57,134 nucleotides of DNA from NCBI GenBank assembly GCA_964472445.1, contig CAYYMU010000001.1, positions 1 through 57,134 of the forward strand. Reading direction: 5' to 3'. Source of the DNA: an uncultured Desulfobacteraceae bacterium. GTDB lineage: Bacteria; Desulfobacterota; Desulfobacteria; Desulfobacterales; ETH-SRB1. Positions within the stretch are counted from its first letter, which is position 1, and each line of letters begins with the position of its first letter. Under the pieces are notes generated by a model that saw only the letters and a list, made by a program, of their open reading frames with translations, had not been told where the DNA came from and made no database searches. The translations under genes and the position numbers were made by a program. This document shows positions 7,181 through 45,864 of this stretch, piece after piece.

Positions 7181-7408
7181 CTACCAGTTCCCCCTAAAAA
7201 ATAAAACCTTTAAAAAACAGTCTTTTCTGCATTTTTTCTGTCTGTATAAAAACATACTGGCAAAAAAAAGTTCCTGTTAAATACAAAAAAAGTTTAATAA
7301 GGCAGACAAAATTTGAATATTCTTCAAAGGTCTCAGAATAAAAAAAATAAAAAAAGCCTTACTAAACTATTATTTAATTATAATATAAAATTTACAGAGT
7401 ACATTTTT

Positions 7409-14540: not shown

Positions 14541-14590
14541 AATAAAAAAAATAAAAATCCACGCCCCCTCAGAGCAGAGGACGTGGATTT
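14541..14590 (-). terminator. Rho-independent terminator of the mrp-like operon
   Basis: Stem AAATCCACG...CGTGGATTT with inner CCTC/GAGG pairing, followed on the minus strand by a long T-run. It lies about 45 nt downstream of the last mrp-like gene. Confidence 0.7.
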
Positions 14591-14633: not shown

Positions 14634-16139
14634 CTATGGGATCGGTATTACCCCTATAACATTATTAAAAAGATTAAGCGCCAGTTTAGGGCATAACCCC
14701 AGTAAGATTGATACGGCTGCTATCATAAGAAGCGGAATGCTCATCGTTAAGGGTGGATCTTTAATTTTATCGTTCGCCAGATTTGGATTTAATGGTCCAA
14801 AAAATATAATTTTTACTGACCTGAATGTATAGGCAACCGTCAGTATAATTGCGCCGGATGCGAAAATCGCAACCATAAGCCCGGTAGGCATTGTCTGAAG
14901 GCCTGTTTTAAATATGCCTGTAAACATAACCCATTCCGCAGGAAAACTGGACATTGGCGGAAAACCGGAAAGCATGGTCGCTCCCATAATCCAGAGTGCT
15001 GCTGTTATCGGCATTTTCTGTGCAAGTCCGCCCATCTGTCTCATATCCCTTGTTCCTGTTGTATAAACCAGTATGCCGGCAGTTGAAAACAGAATGGTTT
15101 TCCCCATAATGTGTCCCAGGAAAAAAAACATTCCGCCCTCAATACTCGCTATAGTGAGAGCTGATATACCAAGAAGCGAATAAGCAAGCTGGCTTATTGT
15201 TGAACAGGCAGCGAAACGTTTTACATCGGTTTGCGCCATAGTTAAAAGGGACCCGTATACCATTGTTATAAGCGCCATTATCATTAGAGGTATTGAAAAT
15301 GCTTTAAAGTCGGCAGGCAGCGGAAAAACTATTACTCGTACCATAACATAGGCCGCAACATTTGCATAAACAGCAAGAAGACCGGCTATACATGTGGGAT
15401 GCTCTGCATGAACCCATGGCATCCAGACATGAAAAGGAAAAGCCGCCATTTTTATCAGTATTGCAATAAGAAGTATAAATATAATCCAGGGAGTCATTGG
15501 ATTTCCCGCAAGATTACTCATATCTGCAATATTAAAACTTCCGATCTGACTATAAGCCATCAGAAATCCTGCAATAAAAAAGGCCGCTCCGATAACCGCC
15601 CACATCAAACAGATCATAGCCACTCTTACTCTGTCAACATACCCAAATGTGGCCATAATAAAATATAGAGGTATGGGCAGCACTTCGAGAAAAAAATACA
15701 TGGCTATCATGTTTTTTACAAGGCATACGCCCATGAAACCCATAGGAAAACCAAGAAACATGGAATAAAAACGTGTATAGTGGTTTAAATATGTACGCTC
15801 ATCCACATCACCGTATATAGCCTCTATCCTGTGATCTATATAGTGTATTGCATAAAATGCAAGAGCAGTGCAAAGGCCGTTAATTATCAACGCAACCGGC
15901 AGGCTTAACCCGTCGCCGAGAAGCCCGAATGTGATTGCCGAATCAATAAATGGATATTCTTCAATAATTACTTCGCCATGATAGACTCTTACACATGCCA
16001 TAAGTAAAAGCACTGTTGAATATAAAAGGCTGCAACCTGCTATCCATCCGGCCTTTCTTCCTATCAGGTGTCTGGTCAACAGTATGAATAAAGAAGCAAT
16101 CGGCGGAACAATTATTATTTGCAAAAGAATATGAGACAT
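14634..16139 (-). CDS. NuoM/N/MrpD-like antiporter-type subunit (third large subunit)
   Basis: 501-aa polytopic protein with proton-conducting membrane-transporter signatures (FPFHVWMPWVHAEHPT, SQLAY, GGL..KMP). Confidence 0.85.
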   Translation of the reverse strand: MSHILLQIIIVPPIASLFILLTRHLIGRKAGWIAGCSLLYSTVLLLMACVRVYHGEVIIEEYPFIDSAITFGLLGDGLSLPVALIINGLCTALAFYAIHYIDHRIEAIYGDVDERTYLNHYTRFYSMFLGFPMGFMGVCLVKNMIAMYFFLEVLPIPLYFIMATFGYVDRVRVAMICLMWAVIGAAFFIAGFLMAYSQIGSFNIADMSNLAGNPMTPWIIFILLIAILIKMAAFPFHVWMPWVHAEHPTCIAGLLAVYANVAAYVMVRVIVFPLPADFKAFSIPLMIMALITMVYGSLLTMAQTDVKRFAACSTISQLAYSLLGISALTIASIEGGMFFFLGHIMGKTILFSTAGILVYTTGTRDMRQMGGLAQKMPITAALWIMGATMLSGFPPMSSFPAEWVMFTGIFKTGLQTMPTGLMVAIFASGAIILTVAYTFRSVKIIFFGPLNPNLANDKIKDPPLTMSIPLLMIAAVSILLGLCPKLALNLFNNVIGVIPIP

Positions 16140-16167
16140 CTTTTTATCTCCGTAATGTCATAAGAAA

Positions 16168-18198
16168 TTATTTTAATACCAGAAATAGCAGACAAATAAA
16201 AACAACAACAACATAGGATATGTTATACAAAAGATCATCCGACTCGGTCCGCAGTTTAAACATCACCGCAGGGGCTCTCTGCGTAAAAAAAGCAGGGATT
16301 TTTCTGTGGACGAAATTGTCAAACCTTTCTTCAAGTGTATAAGCCACAAAATCGGCTAACTTAAATGTTCCGTCCATAAAAAATTTTAAATAAAAAGCAT
16401 CGACGAACCATCTGTTCCAAAAAAATTTATGAAAGATCTGAAGGCTTGATGATCTCTCAAGAATAGCCTTGGGATCCCATTTTTGAGCTATATACATAAA
16501 ATATGCAGGCACTGCTCCAAGAAGTATAGCGGCTATCGACAGCACTGAAACCAGCAAATGGTAATTAAACGGATGTTCTCCGCCATGTGCAACCGGTAAA
16601 GCAAGCGTTCCAACGAGGTTCGAGTGAAACCCCTCTTCTAAAAGATGTTCTACACGTGGACCAACCAGGCCAAGAAATATAATAATTACAGCCAGAACAG
16701 CGCATGCGCCCCACATGGTGAAGGAAACCTCATGAATATGTCCTCCTTCCTGCTTTATATGCTTTATCTGCTTACTCTCCTGGCCATAAAACACCATGCC
16801 GATCATACGGGTTGTGTAAAATGCCGTTAAAACTACGGTAATTACAGCAAGAATAAATATCGGCAACTGATGGGCTTCCAGAGCTGAAAGTAAGATAGCA
16901 TCCTTGCTGAAAAAACCAGGCATAGGCGGAATCCCCATCAAACAAATTGCAGCGATAAGCATGGAAATCCAGGTCAACGGCATATACTTTCTCATTGAAC
17001 CCATATCATTCATATAAATTGAATGAGCGGAATGTATAACAGAACCGGCACACAGAAAGAGGCAGGCCTTGAAAACAGCATGGCTTACAAGGTGAAATAT
17101 GCCTGATGTTGTTCCACCTATCAATACTGCTTCACTTAAACCGGCCATACCCAGGCCCACCCACATGTAACCAATCTGGCTTACAGTAGAAAATGCAAGA
17201 GCTTTTTTAAGCTCTAAGGCGACCATGCCCTGAGTTGCTGCAACAAATGCCGTAATAACCCCTACCCATGCTACAATCGTAAAAAATAAAGAGGCCTCAT
17301 GAACACCGGCCACCCAGTAGCCGTAATAAAACATGGGAATAAACCTGGCGACAAGATAAACCCCGCTTTTAACCATAGTCGCCGCATGAATTAAAGCTGA
17401 AACAGGACCCGGGCCTGCCATGGCCTCCGGAAGCCATTCATGCATGGGAAACTGAGCTGATTTACCAATGGGGCCTGCAAGAAGAAGCACTGTAGTCAGC
17501 ATAATTAGACCCGGGGTCTTAGCCATTTCCGGCATCCAGATAGAGACTGTCGTGTAAAGCTCCATTATATTCAGGGTTTTGGCATAATAAAATATAATTA
17601 ATATGCCGCCTAACATGATAAGATCGCCGACACCCGTTACAACCAGTGCCTTTAACCCGCAATGGCTTGGGGAAACCATTTTGGTGGGTGAAGGACCGCC
17701 TATCCAGTATTTTTCTTCATCTCTATAATAATAACCGATCAAAGCATAACTGCACAAACCAACCAGTTTCCATCCAACAAAAAGAAACAGCAGATTATTT
17801 GTAAGCACCAGCAGGAGCATGCTACCTACAAAAAGGTTTACCAGCATTAAAAACCTGGTTATCCCCGGGTCTCCCTTCATATATCCAAGGCAGTAAACAG
17901 TAATAATACAGCTTATTACGGCAACCACAACTGCCAGGATAATGCTGAGCGGATCTACCAATATCCCGAATTCCACTACAAAAGGTATCTCAAGCCACTT
18001 CACAGAACTTTCGAGAGGCAATGTTTCCGGATGAAACAGGTGCGTCAAGAGCTTCAGGCTGGCGATTGCAGATAAAAAGGGAAAAAGTACGGCCGCGGCA
18101 TTTCTTAGCTTAGGATGTACCCTATCCAGCAAAAATATGAAAACGATCCCAAGAAAAGGGAAAAGCACACATAACCATGCTATTGTCAACGTATCCAC
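16168..18198 (-). CDS. mrpA: NuoL/MrpA-like antiporter-type subunit (N-terminal MrpA part with long C-terminal extension)
   Basis: 676 aa with NuoL-type motifs (FVGWKLVGLCSYALIGYY, AQFPMHEWLPEAMAGP). It lacks the MrpB-like C-terminal domain of full-length MrpA, which is encoded separately here. GTG start with AGGAGG RBS. Confidence 0.8.
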   Translation of the reverse strand: MDTLTIAWLCVLFPFLGIVFIFLLDRVHPKLRNAAAVLFPFLSAIASLKLLTHLFHPETLPLESSVKWLEIPFVVEFGILVDPLSIILAVVVAVISCIITVYCLGYMKGDPGITRFLMLVNLFVGSMLLLVLTNNLLFLFVGWKLVGLCSYALIGYYYRDEEKYWIGGPSPTKMVSPSHCGLKALVVTGVGDLIMLGGILIIFYYAKTLNIMELYTTVSIWMPEMAKTPGLIMLTTVLLLAGPIGKSAQFPMHEWLPEAMAGPGPVSALIHAATMVKSGVYLVARFIPMFYYGYWVAGVHEASLFFTIVAWVGVITAFVAATQGMVALELKKALAFSTVSQIGYMWVGLGMAGLSEAVLIGGTTSGIFHLVSHAVFKACLFLCAGSVIHSAHSIYMNDMGSMRKYMPLTWISMLIAAICLMGIPPMPGFFSKDAILLSALEAHQLPIFILAVITVVLTAFYTTRMIGMVFYGQESKQIKHIKQEGGHIHEVSFTMWGACAVLAVIIIFLGLVGPRVEHLLEEGFHSNLVGTLALPVAHGGEHPFNYHLLVSVLSIAAILLGAVPAYFMYIAQKWDPKAILERSSSLQIFHKFFWNRWFVDAFYLKFFMDGTFKLADFVAYTLEERFDNFVHRKIPAFFTQRAPAVMFKLRTESDDLLYNISYVVVVFICLLFLVLK

Positions 18199-18213
18199 GT
18201 AATGACCTCCTAA

Positions 18214-19707
18214 TTAAAAACCTACAGGTATCACAAATTGAATTGCAGTTGATATAATCTTTGAGCTGAAGATACCTGCCAACAGTATCCCGACAGCCAT
18301 AACCTGTATGGGAATAAGCATACTTAAAGGAACTTCATCCATGCGAACCGACTCGTAAGCCTTATCACGGCCATAATCAGGCATAGGTTTCTCAAATGTG
18401 GCAATCTGTATAACTCTAAAGAAATAGACTACATTCAGGATGCTGCTAAACAACAGAACAGCGACAAAAATCCACTTCCCTGCATCAATTGCACCCATGA
18501 TTAGATATATCTTGCTGAAAAAACCGCAGGTAGGCGGTATGCCGACCATGGAAAAAGCGCCAATAAGAAAGGCTGACATAGTAAACGGCATTTTTCTATA
18601 TAAGTTTTTAAAGTCATATATATTGCAAGCGCCCATTTTATAGACAATAGCCCCTGCGACCAGAAACACACATCCTTTTGTTAACGCTTCATTTAAAATA
18701 TGAAGAACAGCACCGGTAAGACCGTATCTGTTGGCCAGCCCTATACCTAAAGCAATATATCCGATCTGGGCCACAACCGAGTAAGACAGCATCTTCTTCA
18801 GGTCAGTCTGTGCAATAGCATATATTGAACCAAGGACTATCGCAACTGCGGCCATCCAGGTAAGAACAGTTGTCACAGGAATTGTCTCTATGAAAAAAGA
18901 AGGCTTAAAAACAGTAAACATAACCCGTATCATCAGGTAAGCCGCCACCTTGGTCATAAGAGGTGCGATAAGAGCGCTAACTGTAGATGGAGCATCTGCA
19001 TAAGCATTAGGAGCCCATGCATGCAATGGATAAAGTGCCATCTCAATGCTTATGCCAACCACCATAAAAATCCCAGCAGTAAGCACAACTTTTGAATCAT
19101 ATAATTCAGGCAATAATTGAGCCACATCATGCATATTTAGAGAACCTGTGGCCATATACAGGTAACCTACACCTATAAGATAAAATGAAGCTCCAATTGT
19201 ACCCATAATAATGTATCTAAATGCGGCGAAAGGAGCTCCATCCCGTCCAATAGCGATAAGAGCATAACATGAAAGGGCACCAATTTCCAAAAACACAAAG
19301 ACATTAAACAGGTCACCAGTTACAACTATTCCAAAAAGGCCTGTAACAAGAAGCAGAAAAAGCGTGTAAAACGGAACAACCTTCTCAGGCATTTCCTTTT
19401 GAACACTTTTTTTGGAATATATGCCAACAGTAAGAGCTACAAAAGATATTATTATTAAAACAAAAGCATTGAGGTAATCGATTGCATACTCAATTCCCCA
19501 TGGAGGCGACCACCCACCAAGATAATATGAAAATGGGCCACCCGTTATTACCTGGTTTAAAACACCGATCGAGCAAACAACCGTAACAAGAAGAACGGCA
19601 ACGGCCCATGGGTAGCACAATTCTTTTTTCCACCATCCAATAACCGGGGTCAAAAGAGCCGACATCAAAGGTATTACAATCACCATAACAGCAAAGTGCG
19701 TTGCCAT
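18214..19707 (-). CDS. mrpD: MrpD/NuoM-like antiporter-type subunit
   Basis: 497-aa polytopic protein (YPLHAWAPNAYADAPS, AQIGY). Begins 2 nt after the mrpC stop. Confidence 0.85.
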   Translation of the reverse strand: MATHFAVMVIVIPLMSALLTPVIGWWKKELCYPWAVAVLLVTVVCSIGVLNQVITGGPFSYYLGGWSPPWGIEYAIDYLNAFVLIIISFVALTVGIYSKKSVQKEMPEKVVPFYTLFLLLVTGLFGIVVTGDLFNVFVFLEIGALSCYALIAIGRDGAPFAAFRYIIMGTIGASFYLIGVGYLYMATGSLNMHDVAQLLPELYDSKVVLTAGIFMVVGISIEMALYPLHAWAPNAYADAPSTVSALIAPLMTKVAAYLMIRVMFTVFKPSFFIETIPVTTVLTWMAAVAIVLGSIYAIAQTDLKKMLSYSVVAQIGYIALGIGLANRYGLTGAVLHILNEALTKGCVFLVAGAIVYKMGACNIYDFKNLYRKMPFTMSAFLIGAFSMVGIPPTCGFFSKIYLIMGAIDAGKWIFVAVLLFSSILNVVYFFRVIQIATFEKPMPDYGRDKAYESVRMDEVPLSMLIPIQVMAVGILLAGIFSSKIISTAIQFVIPVGF

Positions 19708-19709
19708 AT

Positions 19710-20117
19710 CTAAACTCCCGTGTCTTTTCTTATTTTCATAATTTCATCAAGCTCTAAGGTCTTATATCTCCTGAAAATCAGGATAAGCACCGCAAGTGCA
19801 ACACCTGTCGTGGCAATTGAAACAACTATCGCCGTAAGCATCAGTACATGGGGAAGAGGATTAATATAACTGGCAACATCGATAAGAGCATGTCCATGAC
19901 CGTGAGCCGCATGAGCATCCCCTAAGAATATTGGTACCGTTGCTCCTCCCTTCTTTACGCCGATGGAAATGTAAAAAAGAATCACAGCAGACTGAAATAT
20001 ATTCATCCCAATCAGCTTCTTGACCAGATTCTTCTTGCCCACCATTGCGTAAAGACCAATCAACAGCAAAATGACATACGCCCAGAAGTTGTATTTACTG
20101 ACTATGTACTCAAGCAT
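19710..20117 (-). CDS. mrpC: MrpC/NuoK-like subunit with His-rich loop insertion
   Basis: 135 aa. N-terminal FWAYVILLLIGLYAMVGKKNLVKKLIGMNIFQSAV is typical of MnhC. Extra loop GDAHAAHGHGHA lies between helices 2 and 3. Confidence 0.85.
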   Translation of the reverse strand: MLEYIVSKYNFWAYVILLLIGLYAMVGKKNLVKKLIGMNIFQSAVILFYISIGVKKGGATVPIFLGDAHAAHGHGHALIDVASYINPLPHVLMLTAIVVSIATTGVALAVLILIFRRYKTLELDEIMKIRKDTGV

Positions 20118-20118
20118 A

Positions 20119-20403
20119 TCAGTCTCCTTCTCCCTTGCGTTTTTTTCTTAACATAAGGATACAGGCCATACCTGCTGTAAAAATAACCGTAGTCTCACCC
20201 ATGGTATCGTATCCCCTGTAATCCGCCAAAACAGCGGTAACTATATTGGGTGTCGCTGTTTTTTCCAGCGCTTCCTGAATATACTTAGGTGAAACGTGTG
20301 AATTGGCCGGAGAATTGGGGTCACCCCAATCAGGCATATCTTCAACGCCATATATGAGTAGTGCCCCAGTCAAAATTATTAAGATTGTAGCAACAACTTT
20401 CAA
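20119..20403 (-). CDS. MrpB-family small subunit (MbhE-like; equivalent to the MrpA C-terminal region)
   Basis: 94 aa. IVTAVLADYRGYDTMGETTV is the MnhB-domain signature. TTG start overlaps the upstream stop (TTGA), with GGAGG 8 nt upstream. Confidence 0.7.
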   Translation of the reverse strand: MKVVATILIILTGALLIYGVEDMPDWGDPNSPANSHVSPKYIQEALEKTATPNIVTAVLADYRGYDTMGETTVIFTAGMACILMLRKKRKGEGD

Positions 20404-20645
20404 TCTTTTGACCTCCTTTTTGTTTTACTAACCGCTGCAATAAACAAGACTGTTCCAACCCCTGCGCCAACCGAAGCCTCGGTAAAGGCCACATCAACGG
20501 CCCCCATCTGTGCCCAGAGAATACACATGAAAAAGCTGTAAGCGCCGAGAATAATAACGGCAGCCAGAAGATCTTTGATGGTAATGGCTGCAACCGCACA
20601 GATAATAATCAAAATACAGAGAATAAGATCGAGTTGCCAGATCAT
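20400..20645 (-). CDS. DUF4040/MbhD-like small membrane subunit
   Basis: Three-helix protein with FTEASVGAGV. ATG 20645 overlaps the mrpG stop (ATGA). The ORF-track start at 20666 is probably an over-extension. Confidence 0.7.
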   Translation of the reverse strand: MIWQLDLILCILIIICAVAAITIKDLLAAVIILGAYSFFMCILWAQMGAVDVAFTEASVGAGVGTVLFIAAVSKTKRRSKD

Positions 20646-20965
20646 TTGTTTTCCTCCCTGGTCCACGGTTTAACACCACACCGAAAAGCGGCTCTGGAAA
20701 TTGCATGAGTCGCTGTGGGATTGGCTAAAAAAACGAAAACAGCTATAACAATCAGCTTAATACTGTCTAAAACAGCTCCGTGATAAAAAATGTGATATAA
20801 TGCAATACCCATAAGAGATATAAGCACGGCAAGAGTGTCGCCTTTTCCAGTGGCATGCATCCGGGAATAAAAGTCTGGAAAACGGATCAGACCGATAGTC
20901 CCGGTAGCGAAAAAGAAACATCCTATTAAAACAAACACTATGGATATTATTTTAATAATTTCCAT
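20642..20965 (-). CDS. mrpG: MrpG subunit
   Basis: GTIGLIRFPDFYSRMHATGKGDTLA is the MnhG signature. The start overlaps the mrpF stop. Confidence 0.85.
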   Translation of the reverse strand: MEIIKIISIVFVLIGCFFFATGTIGLIRFPDFYSRMHATGKGDTLAVLISLMGIALYHIFYHGAVLDSIKLIVIAVFVFLANPTATHAISRAAFRCGVKPWTREENK

Positions 20966-21231
20966 CAAATTTCACCTCTTCCTTCAAAGTACTTTGCTGC
21001 TGCCAGAGTACCGATAAAATTTAAAAAGGCGTACACCATAATAATATCAAGGAACATTTCTATTCTCTTATATATAAAACCCATGAGGACGAGGACTATT
21101 AAAGTTTTTGTGCCTATGGCTCCAACACTTACAATTCGATCAATAATAGTTGGCCCGAATACCACCCGATACAGACATATTAAAACAAGCGAGCAAAGAA
21201 AAATGCTTACACCCAAATAAAAACTTTCCAT
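20965..21231 (-). CDS. mrpF: MrpF subunit
   Basis: 88 aa. YRVVFGPTIIDRIVSVGAIGTK is the MnhF signature. Confidence 0.85.
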   Translation of the reverse strand: MESFYLGVSIFLCSLVLICLYRVVFGPTIIDRIVSVGAIGTKTLIVLVLMGFIYKRIEMFLDIIMVYAFLNFIGTLAAAKYFEGRGEI

Positions 21232-21277
21232 ATCTACGCTCCCGAATTTGGTTCACTTACAATTTGAAAAATACGTT

Positions 21278-22228
21278 TCAATCAACTTGATGTTTTGTTG
21301 TTAATTTATATTTTTTAAGCTTTGAATACAAAGTACTCCGGCTTACATCGAGCTGTTTTGCAACCTGCAATTTGTTCCAGTTGCATTCCTGCATAATTTT
21401 TACTAAAAACCTTTTTTCATTTTCTTCAAAAGAGGTTACTGCCTCCTGCTTATGCCCGCTTAAAACTGCATCTAAAATACGGGAAGGCAATAAATCGCTG
21501 CCGATCATTTCTTCTTTTGTCAACAAAAAGGCATGCTGAATAATATTTTCCAGTTCCTTAACATTGCCTGGCCATGAATAGTCCATAAGAAATTGCATTG
21601 TATCAGAGGTAACGCCTTTAACTTTTTTTTTCAGTTCGTCATTCAGCTGTTTTATAAAATATTGAACCAGAAGGGGGATATCTTCTTTTCTCTGTCTTAA
21701 AGAAGGCAGGTGAATATTAATCACATTAAGCATGTAAGAAAATTCTTCGTTAAAAGTTCCCCTTTCAACTTCTCTTCCCAAATCTGTATCAACGGCGGCG
21801 ATTATCCTGATGTCAGTCATTATTTGCTTTTTCCCGCCAAGTCTCATAATTTTCCGGCCCTGCATAAACCTTAAAAGCTTTATCTGGGTCATGGGAGAAA
21901 TTTTGTCTATCGCAGATAAAACAACTGTTCCGCCATCAGCCAGTTCAAGACAACCTTTCTTCTGGCGCACGGCTCCTTCAAACGAACCGATTTCATGGCC
22001 AAAAAGTCCGCTTTCCAGCATGAGCCGAGGACAGGAAGAACAATTATACACCTCAAAAGCATTGCTTTTTCTGTTGCTGTGCAAATGAATGGCCTGTGCA
22101 ACTAATATTTTTTCTGTCCCTTCTTCTCCACGGATCAAAATTGTGGTATCAGTAGGAGCAAGATTCAATATCATATTGTAAACCTGCTTCATTTTTGCGG
22201 ATTGTTTATTTATGTCCTGTATTCTCAA
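21278..22228 (-). CDS. Sigma-54 activator-like AAA+/HTH protein with degenerate catalytic motifs and no N-terminal sensory domain
   Basis: 316 aa and collinear with the AAA+ and Fis-HTH part of the ORF at 30843-32714 (for example SFEENEKRFLVKIMQECNWNKLQVAKQLDVSRSTLYSKLKKYKL). The motifs read GEEGTEK (Walker A), VVLSAIDKI (Walker B), GSFEGA (GAFTGA) and FNEEFSYMLNV (RxDLYYRLNV). TTG start with AAGGA RBS. Confidence 0.75.
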   Translation of the reverse strand: MRIQDINKQSAKMKQVYNMILNLAPTDTTILIRGEEGTEKILVAQAIHLHSNRKSNAFEVYNCSSCPRLMLESGLFGHEIGSFEGAVRQKKGCLELADGGTVVLSAIDKISPMTQIKLLRFMQGRKIMRLGGKKQIMTDIRIIAAVDTDLGREVERGTFNEEFSYMLNVINIHLPSLRQRKEDIPLLVQYFIKQLNDELKKKVKGVTSDTMQFLMDYSWPGNVKELENIIQHAFLLTKEEMIGSDLLPSRILDAVLSGHKQEAVTSFEENEKRFLVKIMQECNWNKLQVAKQLDVSRSTLYSKLKKYKLTTKHQVD

Positions 22229-22244
22229 GCTTAATCCTTAAATG

Positions 22245-22736
22245 TTAATCAGATTGACCCTGCTCTTTGTTTGAAGGAAGGCCTCCTGTAGATATATCCA
22301 AAAAAATTGAGAGCATAACGGCCATAACAGCAATCCCTACACCGGTCTCAACGCCAAGGATACCAAGCGATCTTGCATGGGGAACCTCCACATGCAAAAT
22401 TTTGGCAAGTGCTCCATAGTCTAAAAAATTCCCGCCCAGTATTATACACAATATCCCTATTCCAACATATATTGCGACGCCGAGACTGCATAAAATCGTA
22501 TTTGATCTTTCTGACATCATACGCAAAACATTATCCAACCCATAAGTTATTACAAGTAGAATTAGACTTGCACCCAGAATTACTCCTCCCTGGAAGCCTC
22601 CTCCAGGGCTGTAATGTCCATGCGCAATAACATAAAGAGCATAAATCTGCATAAATGGTATTAATAACCGGGAAAGTGTCTTAACAATAACATCATCCGA
22701 TTGTTTGGTCATGTCTGCTGTCTGTTTGATTGTCAT
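22245..22736 (-). CDS. mrpB: MrpB subunit
   Basis: 163 aa. LLIPFMQIYALYVIAHGHYSPGGGFQGGVILG is the MnhB signature. Confidence 0.85.
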   Translation of the reverse strand: MTIKQTADMTKQSDDVIVKTLSRLLIPFMQIYALYVIAHGHYSPGGGFQGGVILGASLILLVITYGLDNVLRMMSERSNTILCSLGVAIYVGIGILCIILGGNFLDYGALAKILHVEVPHARSLGILGVETGVGIAVMAVMLSIFLDISTGGLPSNKEQGQSD

Positions 22737-22782
22737 ATTTTCAGGCCTTGGTTTTTAAGCGTATGGTTAATAACGATTTTAT

Positions 22783-23496
22783 TTACTTTAACGCCACAAA
22801 AATAGGCGCCATATCGAGAACATCCTGGACATACACATGATCAGCTTCCATAAAAATATGGGCGATCCTGTCCTCCATATCACCGGTCATCAGATCTTCA
22901 GCCACCTTCTTGCTGACAGCATGCACATAATAGACACCGTCTTTAACATCTACTGTAATAGTACCAGGTGTAAGTGTTATCGAATTGGCAAGAGTAACCA
23001 TCGATATATCGCTTTCTAATTTTGACTTAAATTTCATTATCTTCGGATCAAGCAGGCTTCTCGGGCCCAGAGCCAGACGCGCTACATGTAAATTAGACAG
23101 GAAAATCTGGTATAAAAGCCATGGAATGTATATAATAAATCTTTTTACTATTACACGCATATCTCCTGTTCTTGGATTGGCAAACATCAGATCATAAGAC
23201 AAATATGATATCAGCGCACAGCAAAGCATGCCAATTGTGATATGAAATACATCATAGTGACCTGATAAAAGCAGCCAGAAACCCAACAGAATTATGAAAG
23301 CCGATATAAATTTGACAATCTTGGCTTTTGTCTGTTTAGCCCCTGTAAATATTGCCTCTATTCTTTTTCGATGTATAGCCTGAGTCTCAGATGTCAGTTT
23401 GGCGGCAATATCCAATATCTGTTTGGCTCTATCTCTCGCATCATCTAACATTTCAAAGGACTTGTATGTGGCTTGAACCAGTACTGTTACTTCCAT
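22783..23496 (-). CDS. mrpE: MrpE subunit with about 65-aa hydrophilic N-terminal extension
   Basis: The C-terminal 170 aa carry MnhE signatures (WLLLSGHYD, ANSITLTPGTITVDV, YYVHA). GAGGAAAAGG RBS supports the long form. Confidence 0.8.
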   Translation of the reverse strand: MEVTVLVQATYKSFEMLDDARDRAKQILDIAAKLTSETQAIHRKRIEAIFTGAKQTKAKIVKFISAFIILLGFWLLLSGHYDVFHITIGMLCCALISYLSYDLMFANPRTGDMRVIVKRFIIYIPWLLYQIFLSNLHVARLALGPRSLLDPKIMKFKSKLESDISMVTLANSITLTPGTITVDVKDGVYYVHAVSKKVAEDLMTGDMEDRIAHIFMEADHVYVQDVLDMAPIFVALK

Positions 23497-23589: not shown

Positions 23590-24402
23590 TTAAGGAAGCA
23601 GCATAACGGGCGTATGTGATTTTTCCATCACCCTGTATGCCAGCCTGCCTAAAAAAATATCTTTAAATTTATACCTGCGTTTTGCACCTATAATTATCAT
23701 GGTGGAATCATAGTCCTGCGCCGCGCGGAGTATCTCTTCAACAGTTCTTCCCGCATACATGTGATATTCTGCTGAAATACCGAGCTTAATGCATGCATCA
23801 CGGTTATTAACCATTTTATCCATGAGTTGCTGAAGATCGCGCAGGGTTAATTTCTTAAATATTACATTTACAAGTTCGAGTTCGTCTATTAATTCCTTAA
23901 AATCAGCGACACATTTTAATGCTTTTTCATATTCAGTCGACCAGTCTGTGGGCAATAAAACACGTTCAAACATTCCTTTTGAACTAAAATTTAATGTTTT
24001 TTCATCGTTATCAACAGCTATAACAGGAATATTAGCTGATTTAACAATATTATTTAATGTTGAGCCACCAAATATTTTTCGGTCGCTTTGTTTATCAAAA
24101 TGAATAACTATCAGAGAAATCTGGTAATTTTGGATGGTTTTTAAAACGCTTGCAACAAGGTTTTCGGGTTCAATTTTTATGCTCGCATTTATACCGTAAT
24201 CACTCAGTTTCTTTTTCCATGTCTCAAATCGATCAGATACCAGACCCTTTAATCTGCTTTTTTCGATCCCCTTGTCTTTGCCTAAGGCCGAAAGGAGAAC
24301 TATTTCCCGGCATCCAAATTTACTGAGGCCTGATAAACCCTCCAGGACTTTAAAATCGGGTTTATCCAAATTTGTAGCATATAGTATTTTTTTTACGTCC
24401 AT
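23590..24402 (-). CDS. Tandem-domain universal stress protein
   Basis: 270 aa with two USP halves. Same strand as mrpE and 94 nt upstream of it. Confidence 0.8.
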   Translation of the reverse strand: MDVKKILYATNLDKPDFKVLEGLSGLSKFGCREIVLLSALGKDKGIEKSRLKGLVSDRFETWKKKLSDYGINASIKIEPENLVASVLKTIQNYQISLIVIHFDKQSDRKIFGGSTLNNIVKSANIPVIAVDNDEKTLNFSSKGMFERVLLPTDWSTEYEKALKCVADFKELIDELELVNVIFKKLTLRDLQQLMDKMVNNRDACIKLGISAEYHMYAGRTVEEILRAAQDYDSTMIIIGAKRRYKFKDIFLGRLAYRVMEKSHTPVMLLP

Positions 24403-24545
24403 TACCCTACCTTTTCATAAAAATAGCCAGAGTGAAACCTTTGCAAAACGCCCCCTTTTGCCCAATCTCGTTATCAGTCTCAAACTTTAAGCTCCAAAAT
24501 ACTCAACATATCCCTGCAGTTAAAGTTTTTGACTTTCTTGAGATT

Positions 24546-24575
24546 GAATCCCGCTTTTATCGGGATTCGTTTTTC
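24546..24575 (+). other. Stable hairpin plus T-run (orphan plus-strand terminator shape; lies in the leader of the minus-strand USP-mrp transcript)
   Basis: GAATCCCG-CTTTTAT-CGGGATTC followed by GTTTTTC. There is no plus-strand gene upstream. Confidence 0.4.
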
Positions 24576-24655
24576 AAAGGCCTCAGAGTTTCCCTGGGTC
24601 AACTATAGACAAAAATATAAACAATATTATTTTTATGGTTTCAGGCTGAATGTAA

Positions 24656-24671
24656 TGCAACATCCGTGCCT
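24656..24671 (-). promoter_or_regulatory. Sigma-54 (-24/-12) promoter candidate for the USP-mrp-like operon
   Basis: The minus strand reads AGGCACGGATGTTGCAT, against the consensus TGGCACG-N4-TTGCW. GG-N10-GC spacing is exact and only the first T is mismatched. It lies about 255 nt upstream of the USP start codon. Confidence 0.6.
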
Positions 24672-24756
24672 TTTGAGCTATTTTTTGCATTTATCCGTTT
24701 TTCTTAGATAAGATAGAATGTAAAACCAGTATTTAGCCAAAGATACAACACAAATG

Positions 24757-24773
24757 TGTACAATATTTATACA
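24757..24773. promoter_or_regulatory. Candidate enhancer (UAS) dyad TGTA-N9-TACA upstream of the -24/-12 element
   Basis: TGTACAATATTTATACA lies about 100 bp upstream of the -24 element. The 12-mer TGTACAATATTT recurs at 24855-24866. A second dyad, TACAC-N6-GTGTA, is at 24810-24825. Confidence 0.3.
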
Positions 24774-25157
24774 TGCAGGAACCTATTTTCAGAAACCTAT
24801 TCATATCTTTACACAATTGCGTGTATGATATTCAGACATTTTATGTTCAATAACTGTACAATATTTTTCCAGAGTTATCTAAGCCTATGAACTCATAAAA
24901 ACAGACAAATAATATTATCCATAAAAATATCACGACAGACTCGCCTTGAAATATTTTGTGATTTCCTGCAGATTCATTAATATTACAGTTCTGTCTACAT
25001 TTTAACTTGACAATTTAAGCTCTATCTGTTTATTTTGGCAAATATTTATATGCAGAAACAGGGTAAAATATATGCAAAAATAGGGTAAAAGTTGGCAGAT
25101 TATGAATGTCACATTTGCCCTGTGAGCTGAGAACTGTGTTTAAGGAGGATGTTTTTT

Positions 25158-26024
25158 ATGAAATTCAAGAAAATGCTGTTTGTAACCGACTTTGACGAAT
25201 TATGGTTTGATGCCCTTGAATCATTGATGGAACTAAGGAAGGCAGGGCTTAATCATGTGGTTTTTCTCCACGTAATAAGAAAAGAAAGCGTTACAATGCG
25301 ACGCGGAAAAGGCTACCTCAAAGACGAAGATATCAGATTAAGACAAATGGCGGATGTTCGCTTTATTGAATGGGCTGAAAGTATTTTTGAAAAAGGTATG
25401 GAGTGTGGCGCGTATGTTGTCGTTGGTGACCCTCTTCCTAAAATTCTTTCAACAGCTGAAACAGAGGGTATAGACCTGATAGTAACTAAAGCCCATAAAA
25501 CAACAAAATTAGAACGACTGTATGCAGGTTCAACGACCATAGAACTCCTGCGGCGGTCAAAAACGCCTGTTCTGGTTCATAAATATATGCTTCCTTCTGG
25601 AAAGATCAATGATAAGCCTTTTGAAGTTCCTCTGTTTACAACCGACTGGTCATCTCCATGCGAAAGAGCACTGGAACAAATTATTACTCTCAAAAATATC
25701 GTCAAAAAAGTAGTTGTGGTACACGTTGTTAATGATGAAACCGTAAAAGGCAAATCAAAAAACGATCTTATGAAAATTCAAAAAGAAAATAAAAAAAGAC
25801 TGGGAGATGTCTGTGTTGCCTTTGAAGATGAAGGCATAGAGGCGGAATACCATCTTTGCATGGGAGAAACCGTTTCTCAGATCGAAACAGCAGCTCGTGA
25901 ACATGGCGCAACAATGGTTGTTATGGGCGCAACAGGAAAAGGAGCATGGCGGACACGCTGGCTTGGCAGTGTTTCTCAGAAACTTACAGAAATTTCAGAA
26001 TTGCCTACGTTGTTAATACCTTAA
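25158..26024 (+). CDS. Tandem-domain universal stress protein
   Basis: Paralogue of the ORF at 4748-5635 (MKFKKMLF.TDF.EL.F.ALESL.EL+KAGL...). AGGAGG lies 9 nt before ATG 25158, so the ORF-track start at 25149 is probably too early. Confidence 0.85.
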   Translation: MKFKKMLFVTDFDELWFDALESLMELRKAGLNHVVFLHVIRKESVTMRRGKGYLKDEDIRLRQMADVRFIEWAESIFEKGMECGAYVVVGDPLPKILSTAETEGIDLIVTKAHKTTKLERLYAGSTTIELLRRSKTPVLVHKYMLPSGKINDKPFEVPLFTTDWSSPCERALEQIITLKNIVKKVVVVHVVNDETVKGKSKNDLMKIQKENKKRLGDVCVAFEDEGIEAEYHLCMGETVSQIETAAREHGATMVVMGATGKGAWRTRWLGSVSQKLTEISELPTLLIP

Positions 26025-26118: not shown

Positions 26119-26514
26119 TCAGGCTAAAAATTTTTTCAACATAGCTGCCATCTCTTCCGGCTCAACCGGCTTTTCAATATATACTTCAGGTTCTGGTATA
26201 GTCTGACCTTCAGCCTCGGAAAGAGCTTTCTGCGAACGGATAAAAGTCCTTTTTGCTATTCCTGAAAATACCATCACAGGAATATCGCTTAGGTTGGGAT
26301 CTGTTTTTACTTCACGGTACATTTTAATACCACTTTCCTTTGGCATTAATATGTCTAAAATTATCAGATCGGGCTTTTCTTTCCGTATCTTTTTAAGAGC
26401 TTCTTCGCCGTTAACAGCAACTTCAGGCTTAAAGCCACTATCTTCAACTACAGTTGAACAAAATGTTCTCACATCAGCATCATCATCGACAATTAAAACT
26501 CTTTTCTCCATCAT
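26119..26514 (-). CDS. Single-domain CheY-like response regulator
   Basis: Receiver motifs VLIVDDD, DLIILDILMP and a conserved Lys region. AGGAGG precedes ATG 26514, so the ORF-track start at 26544 was trimmed. Confidence 0.85.
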   Translation of the reverse strand: MMEKRVLIVDDDADVRTFCSTVVEDSGFKPEVAVNGEEALKKIRKEKPDLIILDILMPKESGIKMYREVKTDPNLSDIPVMVFSGIAKRTFIRSQKALSEAEGQTIPEPEVYIEKPVEPEEMAAMLKKFLA

Positions 26515-26662
26515 CGTCCTCCTTTTACTCTGAGACTTTTGCAAAATATACTTAAATTAACAATTTTTATCTACTGAAAACCAGTAAATTTTCGAGTAAG
26601 TTTTTCGTTTGATTGAAAAAAATTTATCTACTATATTGATTTTTAAAATATTACAAGAAAAA

Positions 26663-30842: not shown

Positions 30843-32714
30843 TTATTCATCCACATGATTGAGATTATATTTTTTCAGCTTTGCATACAACGTGCTTCGG
30901 CTGATGTTAAGCTTTTTTGCGACCTGGGACTTGTTCCACTGATATTCTTCCAAAACCCCGGTTAAAAATTTTCTTTCATTTTCCTGAAAAGAACTTATTG
31001 TATCTTCTTTATCTGCAATAGAAAATATATTTGGGGGGAAATTTTGTTCATTAATATATTCATCCTTAGTAAGAATAAAAGAATGCTCAATAATATTTTC
31101 CAGCTCTCTGACATTGCCAGGCCAGCTGTAATTTATCAGCAAATTCATAGCATTGGAAGAAATCCCTTTGACCTTTTTATCCCCTCGCGAGTTGAGCTTT
31201 TGCAAGAAATATTCTACTAAAAGTGATATATCGCTGCGTCTTACTCTTAAAGGAGGAACATTTACCGGAATAACATTTAAACGATAATACAAATCCTCAC
31301 GAAAGTTTCCTTTTTCCACTTCTTTACTTAAATCCTTGTTCGTAGCTGTTATTACCCTGGCATCGACATCTATGGTTTTTGTTCCGCCCAACCTTTCGAA
31401 TTTTTGGAATTGAAGAAATCTGAGAAGCTTCACCTGTGAAATTAAAGGAATTTCTCCTATTTCATCAAGAAAAAGTGTCCCTTTATTCGCCAACTCAAAG
31501 CGTCCGATCTTTTTATGTGTAGCGCCGGTAAAGGCTCCTTTCTCATGGCCGAACAATTCGCTTTCTAATAATGTGTGAGGGTAAGCTGAACAGTTTACAA
31601 TGACAAAACGGCCTTCTTTTCTACGGCTGTACGAATGTACTGCTTTTGCAATAAGTTCCTTTCCAGATCCGCTTTCTCCCTGAATCAAAACCGTTGCATT
31701 GGTAGGAGCTATATCTAAAATCAAATTATAAATCTGGCGCATCTTATGATCTTTTCCTATTATGCCTCCAAAACCTGAAAATGTTTTAACCTTTTCATCT
31801 AATCCTTTCAGCCTTTCCTCGTTCAGGGCTATTCTTCTGATATCACCGGCAACCTGTGAAAGCATTAGATGAAAAAAACGTGAATCATCTTTTGAAAAAA
31901 CATTAACATCTGATGCCAGCAAAATCACTCCCCCCGCAATATCCTTTTTACCTATCGGAACAACAGATAAGGACTTATAATTTGCATAGTTTTTCAACCA
32001 CCTGCAGCCAAAAGGATTAAGTTCGCCAATATCCATTGGAGTACATATCGAATTGATAAAAGATACAAGCTCCTCTTTATCCTCTACTGACGGGCATCTA
32101 TAACCATCGACATTAACAAATCCGTCTTTTTCCCGGTTAAAAACAAAAGGCATAACTTCTTCAAACAAAAATATATCTTTGATTCGTTCGATTATAAAAT
32201 CAAAGGCATCGGCCAGATATTTTTTATCACCAAGGTTATATGTAACATTGCAAATAGCCTTAATTTCCTTGTGTGATTTCTCAAGCGCTTCGGTCTTTTC
32301 CTTTACAGCCGTTTCAAGATTTAATGTATAACGCTTAAGTTTTTGTCTGGTTTTTAATTTAGCTTCAGCGCGTCGCAGAGCCATTGAAAGCGTGTGTTTG
32401 TTAATAGGTTTTTCTATAAAATCAGAAGCGTCCAACTGTATTGATTTAACGGCCTTTTCCAAATCTCCGTAACCTGTTATTATAATAATTTCTGTATCCG
32501 GATTTATCTGCTTTATTTTTTTTAATACCTCAATTCCGTTCATACCGGGCATTTTAATATCTGTTAAAACAATAGAAGGCTCCTCCTTTTTGAACAGCTC
32601 AATACCTCTTTCCCCATTTTCAGCTGTTATAACATCATATCCGTCATCTCTAAGAGATATGCTCAATAATTTTCTAATGCCTTCTTCATCATCTATAAGT
32701 AACAGTTTCAACAC
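30843..32714 (-). CDS. Sigma-54-dependent response regulator (receiver, GAF-like domain, AAA+, Fis HTH)
   Basis: 623 aa with a canonical receiver. The AAA+ motifs are intact: GESGSGKE, GHEKGAFTGA, LFLDEIGE and FREDLYYRLNV. C-terminal HTH. Confidence 0.9.
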   Translation of the reverse strand: MLKLLLIDDEEGIRKLLSISLRDDGYDVITAENGERGIELFKKEEPSIVLTDIKMPGMNGIEVLKKIKQINPDTEIIIITGYGDLEKAVKSIQLDASDFIEKPINKHTLSMALRRAEAKLKTRQKLKRYTLNLETAVKEKTEALEKSHKEIKAICNVTYNLGDKKYLADAFDFIIERIKDIFLFEEVMPFVFNREKDGFVNVDGYRCPSVEDKEELVSFINSICTPMDIGELNPFGCRWLKNYANYKSLSVVPIGKKDIAGGVILLASDVNVFSKDDSRFFHLMLSQVAGDIRRIALNEERLKGLDEKVKTFSGFGGIIGKDHKMRQIYNLILDIAPTNATVLIQGESGSGKELIAKAVHSYSRRKEGRFVIVNCSAYPHTLLESELFGHEKGAFTGATHKKIGRFELANKGTLFLDEIGEIPLISQVKLLRFLQFQKFERLGGTKTIDVDARVITATNKDLSKEVEKGNFREDLYYRLNVIPVNVPPLRVRRSDISLLVEYFLQKLNSRGDKKVKGISSNAMNLLINYSWPGNVRELENIIEHSFILTKDEYINEQNFPPNIFSIADKEDTISSFQENERKFLTGVLEEYQWNKSQVAKKLNISRSTLYAKLKKYNLNHVDE

Positions 32715-45695: not shown

Positions 45696-45864
45696 AATAT
45701 ATAAAAGATTCTTATCTCAACCTGGTTAATGGACAGGGTTTCACAAGTTTAATCGCACCCATTAAGAGAGACTTTTGCAAAACCATCATTATCTGTCATT
45801 TTCACCGTAGGAAAAAATCTTAACGGACTTGGATTATTAAGAAATTAAACCCTTATAACCCTGC

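What the first reader, a model, noticed from the sequence alone, without database searches (positions are those of the whole stretch)
24546..24870. Near-consensus -24/-12 promoter with upstream dyads and a structured leader ahead of the USP-Mrp cluster
Seen in sequence:
- In the 746-bp AT-rich gap, the minus strand reads AGGCACGGATGTTGCAT (24656-24671). This is 15 of 16 matches to TGGCACG-N4-TTGCW, with exact GG-N10-GC spacing.
- About 100 and 200 bp further upstream are two copies of TGTACAATATTT. The first forms TGTA-N9-TACA.
- A TACAC-N6-GTGTA dyad lies at 24810-24825.
- The predicted leader of about 240 nt contains the hairpin at 24546-24568. Read on the plus strand, that hairpin looks like an orphan terminator (T-run at 24569-24575).

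Established knowledge: sigma-54 promoters need an enhancer-binding protein bound about 80-200 bp upstream.

Inference: the tandem-USP gene and the Mrp-like cluster form a sigma-54 regulon unit. It would be controlled by the intact regulator at 30843-32714, the degenerate one at 21278-22228, or both. The plus-strand terminator shape could instead mark a short cis-antisense RNA against the leader.
Basis: partly seen in the sequence, partly recalled or inferred. Interest (0 to 1): 0.6.

Follow-up and report, generated by a model that had tools for sequence, protein, structure and literature searches.

The report
Conserved sigma-54 promoter; leader is a MITE
The stress-protein/Mrp ion-pump operon of this uncultured sulfate reducer very probably has a genuine sigma-54 promoter with a three-site enhancer, both conserved across four genera, but the long "structured leader" and its terminator-like hairpin are a 151-bp mobile-element insertion.

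Summary

**Promoter.** AGGCACGGATGTTGCA (24656-24671, minus strand) is weak evidence on its own. A window this size gives about 0.4 such matches by chance, and most equally good sites in the genome lie inside genes. Conservation is what makes it convincing:
- 15 of the 16 relatives with a USP orthologue (three further genera of the family) carry GGCAYR-N4-TTGC upstream of it, in the gene's orientation. In the 16th, the contig ends first.
- GGCA and TTGC never vary, while the flanking sequence does.

**Enhancer.** About 190 bp upstream aligns almost without gaps. It holds three 17-bp TGT-N11-ACA dyads, centred near -120, -185 and -207, and one invariant box.

**Supporting context.**
- rpoN is intact.
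- A neighbouring response-regulator activator co-occurs with the locus.
- The ATPase-dead activator copy inside the operon has almost the same DNA-recognition helix as that activator.

**Leader.** Window 24434-24584 is a 151-bp MITE with 15-bp inverted ends and a 5-bp target duplication (ACTCT), one of roughly 100 copies in the genome. The "orphan terminator" lies inside it.

**Verdict.** This is a well-supported new instance of a known regulatory design. The regulatory-leader and antisense-RNA readings are not supported. No transcript data could be consulted.

The parts
24656..24671 (-). Sigma-54 (-24/-12) promoter AGGCACGGATGTTGCA. GG is at 24670-24669 and GC at 24658-24657. Predicted start about 24645.
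   Evidence: GGCA and TTGC are invariant in 16 genomes, and the A at -26 is conserved too. Ranks 5th in the genome with an approximate matrix.
24757..24773 (-). Enhancer dyad D (minus strand TGTATAAATATTGTACA), centre about -120.
   Evidence: Best dyad-matrix score in the whole genome. Half-sites change symmetrically in relatives (TGTCCA..TGGACA, TGCCCG..CGGTCA).
24786..24813 (-). Box C, TGTAAAGATATGAATAGGTTTCTGAAAA. The core AAAGATA (24804-24810) is invariant. The factor that binds it is unknown.
   Evidence: spacing B-C 28 bp, C-D 36-37 bp. Unique in the genome.
24822..24838 (-). Enhancer dyad B (TGTCTGAATATCATACA), centre about -185.
   Evidence: TGT and ACA are invariant in 16 genomes. 7th best dyad score in the genome.
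24844..24860 (-). Enhancer dyad A (TGTACAGTTATTGAACA), centre about -207.
   Evidence: 2nd best score in the genome with a matrix that did not include A sites. A-B spacing is 22 bp in 15 of 16 genomes.
24434..24584 (.). 151-bp MITE copy inside the 5' leader. Inverted ends GAAACCTTTGCAAAA (24434-24448) and TTTTTCAAAGGCCTC (24570-24584). 5-bp target-site duplication AGAGT at 24429-24433 and 24585-24589.
   Evidence: 25 near full-length copies aligned, each with its own 5-bp duplication. (more than 220 end matches per strand; size classes 142-210 bp). (80 of 84 copies are intergenic).
24546..24568 (+). Hairpin read as an 'orphan terminator'. It is internal to the MITE copy, and its T-run (24570-24574) belongs to the MITE's inverted end.
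   Evidence: A second MITE copy (contig C78) has the same CCCG-loop-CGGG hairpin next to its end.
23590..24402 (-). Tandem-USP gene (USP1, 270 aa), first gene downstream of the promoter.
   Evidence: Orthologues at 49-67% identity in 15 relatives, and one at 36%.
14634..23496 (-). Mrp/Mbh-like membrane module: MnhE, MnhB, short degenerate activator (21278-22228), MrpF, MnhG, MbhD, MbhE, NuoK-like, and three antiporter-like subunits.
   Evidence: The same order is found in other genera. No second -24/-12 motif in the 1.5 kb downstream in relatives.
21278..22228 (-). Short activator paralogue (316 aa, AAA+ and HTH only) with conserved loss of Walker A (GEEGTEK), Walker B (LS[AE]), GAFTGA (G/A-x-F/Y-E-G-A) and arginine-finger motifs.
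   Evidence: Its nearest paralogue is the REC-activator. HTH tail score 170, against 95 or less for the other 11 activators.
14555..14590 (-). Strong intrinsic terminator (15-bp stem, then TTATTTTTTT) just after the last gene. Likely end of the operon.
30843..32714 (-). Intact response-regulator sigma-54 activator (REC, linker, AAA+, HTH; GESGSGK, GAFTGA, DEIGE). Proposed cognate activator.
   Evidence: Syntenic in every relative examined. Co-occurs with USP1.
25007..25036 (+). Sigma-70-like promoter TTGACA-18-TATTTT for the divergent tandem-USP gene (USP2, 25149-26024).
   Evidence: CTTGAC is invariant in 7 genomes.

Best explanation
Window 24656-24671 (minus strand) is a functional sigma-54 promoter. 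The predicted start is about 24645.

Its enhancer is three 17-bp dyads of the form TGT-N11-ACA: D at 24757-24773, B at 24822-24838 and A at 24844-24860. Together they would seat three dimers, enough for a hexamer, of the neighbouring response-regulator activator (30843-32714).

The proposed sequence of events is as follows. The adjacent kinases phosphorylate the activator. It assembles on the enhancer, loops to the promoter and opens the sigma-54 closed complex. Transcription then runs about 10 kb through the tandem-USP gene and the Mrp-like module to the terminator at 14555-14590.

The ATPase-dead paralogue inside the operon has nearly the same recognition helix as the activator. It probably binds the same dyads or mixes into the oligomer, and so damps its own operon.

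The long, strongly folding leader is not a regulatory device. A 151-bp MITE landed between the promoter and the ribosome-binding site. Without it the leader would be about 87 nt. The terminator-like hairpin on the + strand is part of that element.

Shown here: motifs, conservation, spacing, synteny, MITE anatomy. Inferred: sigma-54 dependence, which protein binds the dyads, a single transcription unit, and feedback by the dead paralogue.
For: **Promoter conservation**
- 15 of 16 relatives with a USP1 orthologue have GGYAYR-N4-TTGC upstream in the gene's orientation. The 16th contig ends 53 bp upstream of the gene.
- In alignment A1, GGCA and TTGC are invariant, while mean column identity is 59%.

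**Enhancer**
- Alignment A2 is nearly gapless over about 190 bp.
- Spacing is A-B 22 bp in 15 of 16 genomes, B-D 64-65 bp in 15 of 16, and D to GG 103-108 bp in 14 of 16.
- Information content is 1.7-1.8 bits at the dyad triplets, the promoter core and box C, against 1.12 bits for the remaining columns.
- The dyad matrix ranks D first, A second and B seventh in 2.27 Mb.

**Machinery**
- rpoN is a 476-aa gene with its activator-interacting, core-binding and DNA-binding domains.
- The genome has 13 activator genes.
- Of 15 intergenic matrix hits at 14 bits or more, 5 lie within 5 kb of an activator gene, where 4.5% is expected (p = 4e-4). For hits inside genes the figure is 2 of 70.

**Regulator assignment**
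- Synteny is conserved in four genera.
- All 16 genomes with USP1 have the REC-activator. 7 of 9 without USP1 lack it (Fisher p = 7e-5).
- The recognition helix SRSTLY[AS]KLKKY is shared only by the two paralogues.

**No rival promoter**
- No sigma-70-like site lies on the minus strand between 24403 and 25010.
- USP2 has its own conserved TTGACA promoter.

**MITE**
- Inverted ends, a 5-bp duplication and about 90 blast copies on 75 contigs.

**Published pattern**
- Multiple dyad-symmetric enhancer sites upstream of sigma-54 promoters are the pattern described for NtrC-like regulators (PMC11841059).
- Conserved promoter plus co-localised activator was the criterion used for Desulfovibrio vulgaris (PMC4641369).
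Against: - There are no transcript data.
- The -24/-12 match alone is not statistically unusual. High-scoring sites are not enriched overall in intergenic DNA.
- -26 is A rather than the usual T, although this is conserved.
- Dyad A is only weakly symmetric in genus g3.
- Nothing shows which protein binds the dyads. Box C has no assigned factor, and no canonical IHF site was seen.
- An internal promoter in the USP1-MnhE gap cannot be excluded. That gap is 93 bp here and 230-250 bp in some relatives.
- 2 of 9 genomes without a detected USP1 do have the REC-activator. Both are fragmented assemblies.
Confidence: 0.82

Rival explanations
1. The -24/-12 match is a chance or non-functional resemblance. 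USP1/Mrp is transcribed from a sigma-70-type promoter, and the conserved dyads bind an ordinary repressor or activator.
For: The motif alone is expected about 0.4 times per window. Most equally good matches in the genome are inside genes. The box C region reads as a weak sigma-70-like pair on the + strand here and in one relative.
Against: GGCA-N6-TTGC is invariant in 16 genomes while the flanks diverge. The distance to the dyads is held within a few bp. No sigma-70-like site lies on the minus strand between the gene and position 25010. Intact rpoN and a syntenic activator co-occur with the locus. Two sigma-54 activator paralogues flank the locus in every genome.
Confidence: 0.07
2. The leader of about 240 nt is a selected cis-regulatory RNA (attenuator, thermometer or riboswitch-like element), or the + strand hairpin terminates a short cis-antisense RNA against it.
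For: The leader folds much better than shuffles (-71.1 kcal/mol, z = -4.6). A terminator-shaped hairpin lies on the + strand. MITE copies are biased toward one orientation relative to downstream gene starts (51 against 22, p = 9e-4), so the family may affect expression.
Against: 151 nt of the leader are a MITE with inverted ends and a target duplication, so the fold reflects the element's palindromic build. The leader is not conserved. The motif-to-ATG distance is about 60-110 nt in genus g3, and other relatives carry unrelated insertions. Rfam has no match at E <= 1. No + strand promoter-like site lies upstream of the hairpin. The T-run is the MITE's inverted end.
Confidence: 0.06
3. The promoter is sigma-54-dependent, but its cognate activator is a different protein: another of the 13 activators, or the short paralogue acting with a partner. 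The REC-activator would then serve another target.
For: No binding data exist. The short paralogue shares the recognition helix. A third activator gene lies in the window at 41409-42764.
Against: The short paralogue lacks Walker A, Walker B, GAFTGA and arginine-finger residues in all four genera examined, so it cannot remodel sigma-54 alone. No other good dyad cluster exists in the genome for the REC-activator to use. The REC-activator is syntenic and co-occurs with the locus. The other activators have unrelated HTH tails.
Confidence: 0.12

Closest known systems
glnAp2 / NtrC enhancer of Escherichia coli and Salmonella (from my own knowledge of the textbook system)
   Same: A -24/-12 promoter activated from a distance by a response-regulator AAA+ activator. 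The activator binds several 17-bp dyad-symmetric sites 100-200 bp upstream and oligomerises there. The sites sit on a conserved helical register relative to the promoter.
   Different: The half-site here is TGT(A/C)CA rather than TGCACC. There are three sites plus an extra invariant box of unknown function. The target is a USP/Mrp-like operon, not nitrogen assimilation. An ATPase-dead paralogue of the activator is encoded inside the target operon.
NmpRSTU / NmpR regulon of Myxococcus xanthus (PMC11841059)
   Same: A multi-component phosphorelay ends in an NtrC-like regulator. That regulator binds paired dyads (GCGCA-N5-TGCGC) upstream of sigma-54 promoters in intergenic regions. The paper also discusses universal stress proteins.
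   Different: The dyad sequence is different. NmpR was tested by gel shift and reporter assays, whereas nothing here has been tested experimentally. No embedded dead paralogue is described there.
Sigma-54 regulome of Desulfovibrio vulgaris Hildenborough (PMC4641369)
   Same: Regulons were predicted from conserved -24/-12 promoters next to co-localised activator genes with conserved upstream palindromes. The organisms are sulfate reducers with many activators.
   Different: That paper does not mention a USP or an antiporter regulon. The present lineage is uncultured, related to Ca. Desulfaltia, Eth-SRB1 and seep Desulfobacterales MAGs.
MITEs co-transcribed in 5' leaders, such as Correia elements of Neisseria (from my own knowledge)
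   Same: A short non-autonomous element with inverted ends and a target duplication, present in about 100 copies. It is almost always intergenic, is often inserted between a promoter and a start codon, and gives the mRNA a long hairpin.
   Different: The sequence family is unrelated: ends GAGACCTTTGCAAAA, a 5-bp duplication, and size classes of 142-210 bp. No effect on expression has been shown. No parent transposase was identified.

Membership tests
Sigma-54-dependent (-24/-12) promoter | GG and GC dinucleotides exactly 10 bp apart within a TGGCAC-N5-TTGCW-like context, oriented toward a gene | tested here: met
   AGGCACGGATGTTGCA, 15 of 16 matches, 254 nt upstream of the USP1 ATG on the same strand
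Sigma-54-dependent (-24/-12) promoter | The genome encodes sigma-54 (rpoN) and AAA+ activators | tested here: met
   rpoN of 476 aa with AID, CBD and DBD. 13 activator genes.
Sigma-54-dependent (-24/-12) promoter | The element is conserved at orthologous loci beyond the background level | tested here: met
   Present in all 15 testable relatives. GGCA and TTGC are invariant against 59% mean column identity.
Sigma-54-dependent (-24/-12) promoter | Transcription starts about 12 nt downstream of the GC and requires rpoN and an activator | not testable with these tools
NtrC-type upstream enhancer | Multiple dyad-symmetric sites about 80-200 bp upstream of the promoter | tested here: met
   Three TGT-N11-ACA dyads centred at about -120, -185 and -207, with conserved spacing
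NtrC-type upstream enhancer | The sites are bound by the HTH of the cognate activator | not testable with these tools
   Indirect evidence only: synteny, co-occurrence, a unique shared recognition helix, and no other dyad cluster in the genome
MITE (non-autonomous transposable element) | Terminal inverted repeats | tested here: met
   GAAACCTTTGCAAAA and the reverse complement of TTTTTCAAAGGCCTC match at 12 of 15 positions. Family consensus GAGACCTTTG(A/C)AAAA.
MITE (non-autonomous transposable element) | A target-site duplication flanks each copy | tested here: met
   ACTCT on both sides here. Different 5-bp duplications flank other copies, such as GAATA, ACATT, TCTGT and ACATC.
MITE (non-autonomous transposable element) | Many dispersed short copies without coding capacity | tested here: met
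   About 90 blast copies on 75 contigs, 80 of 84 intergenic, sizes 142-210 bp
MITE (non-autonomous transposable element) | An autonomous partner element with the same ends | tested here: inconclusive
   End pairs 1.4-3.8 kb apart exist, but their ORFs were not examined for a transposase
Intrinsic terminator of a cis-antisense RNA | G+C-rich hairpin followed by a T-run | tested here: met
   9-bp stem with 5 G-C pairs, then GTTTTTC
Intrinsic terminator of a cis-antisense RNA | A promoter on the same strand upstream, and conservation of the unit | tested here: not met
   No + strand promoter-like site between 24300 and 24546. The hairpin lies inside a MITE and is absent from relatives' leaders.
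Known leader RNA or riboswitch (Rfam) | A match to a curated covariance model | tested here: not met
   No match at E <= 1 on either strand of 24300-25250

The most novel reading that the evidence does not exclude
The enhancer is a shared docking platform for two paralogues with the same DNA-recognition helix: an active phospho-dependent activator, and an ATPase-dead copy that cannot contact sigma-54 and is encoded inside the target operon. Induction would then produce its own competitor or poison subunit, giving a self-limiting pulse. The invariant box C would bind a further, unknown factor. Through the adjacent heme-sensor kinase and tetraheme cytochrome, the circuit would couple periplasmic redox state to an Mrp-type ion module. 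This would occur in bacteria that live as electron-accepting partners of alkane- and methane-oxidising archaea.
Probability: 0.3. Interest if true: 0.6.

Novelty: new member of a known kind. Interest (0 to 1): 0.35.

Why it matters
- It gives a concrete, testable regulatory map for one of the few conserved signalling loci of the uncultured Desulfobacterales related to Eth-SRB1, Ca. Desulfaltia and seep SRB. The map names the promoter, three enhancer sites, the likely activator and the extent of the operon.
- It links a heme-based sensor relay to a USP/Mrp-like membrane module.
- It supplies the DNA target needed to test what the conserved dead activator paralogue does.
- It is also a caution. 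A strongly folding leader with a terminator-like hairpin can be a transposon scar. In this genome MITE ends even produce spurious sigma-54 matrix hits, for example TGGCGAGACCTTTGCA on contig C106.

Tried and rejected
- **Rfam:** no match on 24300-25250.
- **Genome-wide motif statistics:** neither the consensus with 2 or fewer mismatches nor an approximate weight matrix shows overall enrichment in intergenic DNA. I therefore dropped the motif's score as an argument. I kept only the enrichment of intergenic hits near activator genes.
- **Family-wide pattern search for box C plus dyad D:** I mis-counted the spacer, and the window's own genome gave no hit. That search is uninformative and is not used.
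- **Script on relatives' loci:** I used the DNA search and DNA alignment instead.
- **IHF:** no WATCAA-N4-TTR site was seen between the dyads and the promoter or in box C. Four HU/IHF-family genes exist. Box C is unique in the genome, so it is not a general bending-protein site.
- **Box C as a sigma-70 promoter:** a weak pair on the + strand appears here and in G022 but not in G001. This is left open.
- **Second -24/-12 match at 6662-6677:** it lies inside a CitMHS_2 transporter gene and is treated as chance.
- **Link to the MITE family another reader noted at 7409, 32885 and 39439:** the ends do not match, so it is a different family.
- **Internal promoter in the USP1-MnhE gap:** the alignment was inconclusive.
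Full report
**Setting**

The window is the whole of contig C1 of a 2.27-Mb, 272-contig assembly with about 40% GC. Relatives retrieved with a locus protein are MAGs labelled Ca. Desulfaltia, Desulfobacteraceae Eth-SRB1 and seep "Deltaproteobacteria"/Desulfobacterales.

The 746-bp gap 24403-25148 (33% GC) separates two divergent tandem-USP genes:
- USP1, 23590-24402, minus strand
- USP2, 25149-26024, plus strand

Downstream of USP1 on the minus strand lie, in order: MnhE, MnhB, a 316-aa AAA+/HTH protein, MrpF, MnhG, MbhD, MbhE, a NuoK-like gene and three antiporter-like subunits, ending at 14634. Beyond USP2 lie a receiver protein, a hybrid kinase, a PAS kinase with a periplasmic sensor, a multiheme cytochrome and a 623-aa REC-AAA+-HTH activator at 30843-32714.

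**Checking the observation**

- The motif is AGGCACGGATGTTGCA, with one mismatch to TGGCACG-N4-TTGCW.
- Taken alone it is not remarkable. 0.44 such matches are expected per window and 2 are found.
- The genome holds 8, of which 6 lie in ORFs.
- With an approximate matrix written from the published consensus, the site ranks 5th. Three of the four higher-scoring sites are intragenic.

**What makes the promoter convincing**

USP1 orthologues at 49-67% identity occur in 15 genomes of three other genera of the family, and one more distant copy at 36% identity occurs in a sixteenth genome. Wherever the contigs extend that far, the divergent USP2 lies beside them.
- GGYAYR-N4-TTGC is found once per locus, upstream of USP1 and in its orientation, in every relative whose contig reaches that far. 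The one exception ends 53 bp upstream.
- In the alignment, GGCA and TTGC are invariant and the A at -26 is conserved, while the flanks average 59% identity.
- The genome has a complete rpoN and 13 activator genes.
- Intergenic matrix hits of 14 bits or more cluster near activator genes: 5 of 15 against 4.5% expected (p = 4e-4). Hits inside genes do not: 2 of 70. The organism therefore uses canonical sigma-54 promoters.

**The enhancer**

The roughly 190 bp upstream of the promoter aligns almost without gaps across the four genera. It contains three 17-bp TGT-N11-ACA dyads. In window coordinates, read on the minus strand, they are:

| Site | Coordinates | Sequence |
|---|---|---|
| A | 24844-24860 | TGTACAGTTATTGAACA |
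| B | 24822-24838 | TGTCTGAATATCATACA |
| D | 24757-24773 | TGTATAAATATTGTACA |

An invariant box C (core AAAGATA, 24804-24810) lies between B and D.

- Spacing is rigid: A-B 22 bp, B-C 28 bp, C-D 36-37 bp, and D to GG 103-108 bp in 14 of 16 genomes.
- Relative to a start at about 24645, the centres lie near -120, -185 and -207.
- Half-sites change symmetrically between genomes (TGTCCA..TGGACA, TGCCCG..CGGTCA, TGTACA..TGTACA), as expected for a dimer-binding site.
- A symmetrised matrix from sites B and D of all 16 genomes ranks D first, A second (A sites were not used to build it) and B seventh in the whole genome. This locus is therefore probably the activator's only strong target.

**Which regulator**

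The gene order is kept in genera g2, g3 and g5: REC-activator, (cytochrome), kinase, hybrid kinase, receiver, then USP2 facing USP1-MnhE-MnhB-short activator-MrpF and onward.
- All 16 genomes with USP1 have the REC-activator. 7 of 9 family genomes without USP1 lack it. The two exceptions are fragmented assemblies (Fisher p = 7e-5).
- The short protein's nearest paralogue is the REC-activator, at 52-56% identity against 44% or less for all others.
- In four genera the short protein carries the same losses:
  - Walker A: GEEGTEK for GESGSGK
  - Walker B: LS(A/E) for LDE
  - GAFTGA: G/A-x-F/Y-E-G-A
  - REDLYYRL replaced by NEEFSYML
- Its recognition helix is nearly identical (SRSTLYSKLKKY against SRSTLYAKLKKY). 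No other activator in the genome resembles it: tail score 170 against 95 or less.
- This agrees with an earlier follow-up note on that gene.

I infer that the REC-activator drives the promoter and that the dead paralogue competes at, or co-assembles on, the same dyads.

**Extent of the unit**

- No intrinsic terminator lies in an intergenic gap on the minus strand between 24402 and 14634.
- A 15-bp-stem terminator with a T-run follows at 14555-14590.
- No second -24/-12 motif occurs in the 1.5 kb downstream of USP1 in relatives.
- An internal promoter in the USP1-MnhE gap cannot be excluded.
- USP2 has its own conserved TTGACA-18-TATTTT promoter at 25007-25036.

**The leader**

The predicted 243-nt leader folds at -71.1 kcal/mol, z = -4.6. 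A blast of the gap against the genome shows that 24431-24549 matches dozens of loci.

Aligning near full-length copies with their flanks shows a MITE:
- inverted ends GAGACCTTTG(A/C)AAAA
- a 5-bp target duplication that differs at each copy
- about 90 blast copies on 75 contigs
- more than 220 end matches per strand, in size classes from 142 to about 210 bp
- 80 of 84 copies intergenic

The copy here spans 24434-24584 and is flanked by ACTCT on both sides. Removing it leaves a leader of about 87 nt, which is in the range of relatives. The motif-to-ATG distance is about 60-110 nt in g3, and other relatives carry unrelated insertions.

The hairpin at 24546-24568 is internal to the copy. Its T-run is the first bases of the inverted end. 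Another copy, on contig C78, has the same CCCG-loop-CGGG hairpin beside its end. No + strand promoter-like site precedes it, and Rfam has no match. The regulatory-leader and antisense-RNA readings are therefore not supported.

The family's orientation bias toward downstream gene starts (51 against 22, p = 9e-4) remains unexplained.

**Comparison with known systems**

- The design is that of NtrC-type enhancers, such as glnAp2 (my own knowledge) and the NmpR dyads GCGCA-N5-TGCGC of Myxococcus (PMC11841059).
- The method of inference is the one used for the Desulfovibrio vulgaris sigma-54 regulome (PMC4641369). That paper lists no USP or antiporter regulon.
- What is new is the instance: the half-site, the target operon, the lineage, box C, and the dead paralogue encoded in the target.

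I therefore rate it a new member of a known kind and of moderate interest.

**Limits**

- There are no transcript or binding data.
- The sigma-54 matrix values are my approximations of a published consensus.
- Gene calls used for the genome-wide statistics are simple longest-ORF calls.
- One pattern search was mis-specified and is discarded.

Noticed in passing
window 24434-24584, and about 90 further copies genome-wide (e.g. C146:1425-1625, C5:6905-7105): An abundant MITE superfamily with ends GAGACCTTTG(A/C)AAAA, a 5-bp target duplication and size classes of 142, 155, 161, 175, 188 and about 205 bp. Copies are almost all intergenic and biased toward one orientation relative to the downstream gene start (51 against 22). 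No parent transposase was identified.
   Followed up: partly
window 24786-24813: Box C, TGTAAAGATAT(A/G)AATA(T/G)GTT, is nearly invariant in 16 genomes and sits at fixed spacing between enhancer dyads B and D. It is unique in the genome and is not an IHF consensus. On the + strand it overlaps a weak sigma-70-like pair (TTCATA-18-TATGAT, 24800-24829).
   Followed up: partly
window 25007-25036 and 25048-25090: USP2 has a conserved sigma-70-like promoter (the TTGACA is invariant in 7 genomes). In this genome only, a tandem 21-bp repeat (ATATGCAGAAACAGGGTAAAA / TATATGCAAAAATAGGGTAAAA) lies between it and the ribosome-binding site.
   Followed up: partly
window 21278-22228 and orthologues (L032:4614-5561, L033:4556-5491, L035:10898-11836): The short activator paralogue keeps the same set of catalytic-motif losses in four genera, yet shares 72-79% identity with its orthologues and a recognition helix with the REC-activator. 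This points to purifying selection on a non-catalytic role.
   Followed up: yes
L006 (G009) leader, about 190 bp between the promoter and USP1; L003 (G021) leader: Relatives carry unrelated repeat insertions at the same place in the leader: a G+C-rich palindromic block in G009, and GTTCA/CCCTGAAC-type short repeats in G021. The promoter-to-start interval appears to be a tolerated landing site for mobile repeats.
   Followed up: no
window 6662-6677 (minus strand): A second one-mismatch sigma-54 match, CGGCACGTTGCTTGCT, lies inside a CitMHS_2 transporter gene (5651-7180), about 1 kb upstream of a third tandem-USP gene (4748-5635). A similar match sits about 1 kb upstream of that USP's orthologue in G003 (L020). 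This is probably coding conservation.
   Followed up: partly
contig C106:2721-2736 of the same genome: A sigma-54 matrix hit, TGGCGAGACCTTTGCA, is produced by a MITE inverted end. This is a source of false positives for promoter scans in this genome.
   Followed up: no
window 26532-26546, 45768-45782, 52197-52211, 7320-7334: Solitary matches to the MITE inverted end. One overlaps the start of the receiver gene at 26119-26544. They may be partial or decayed copies.
   Followed up: no
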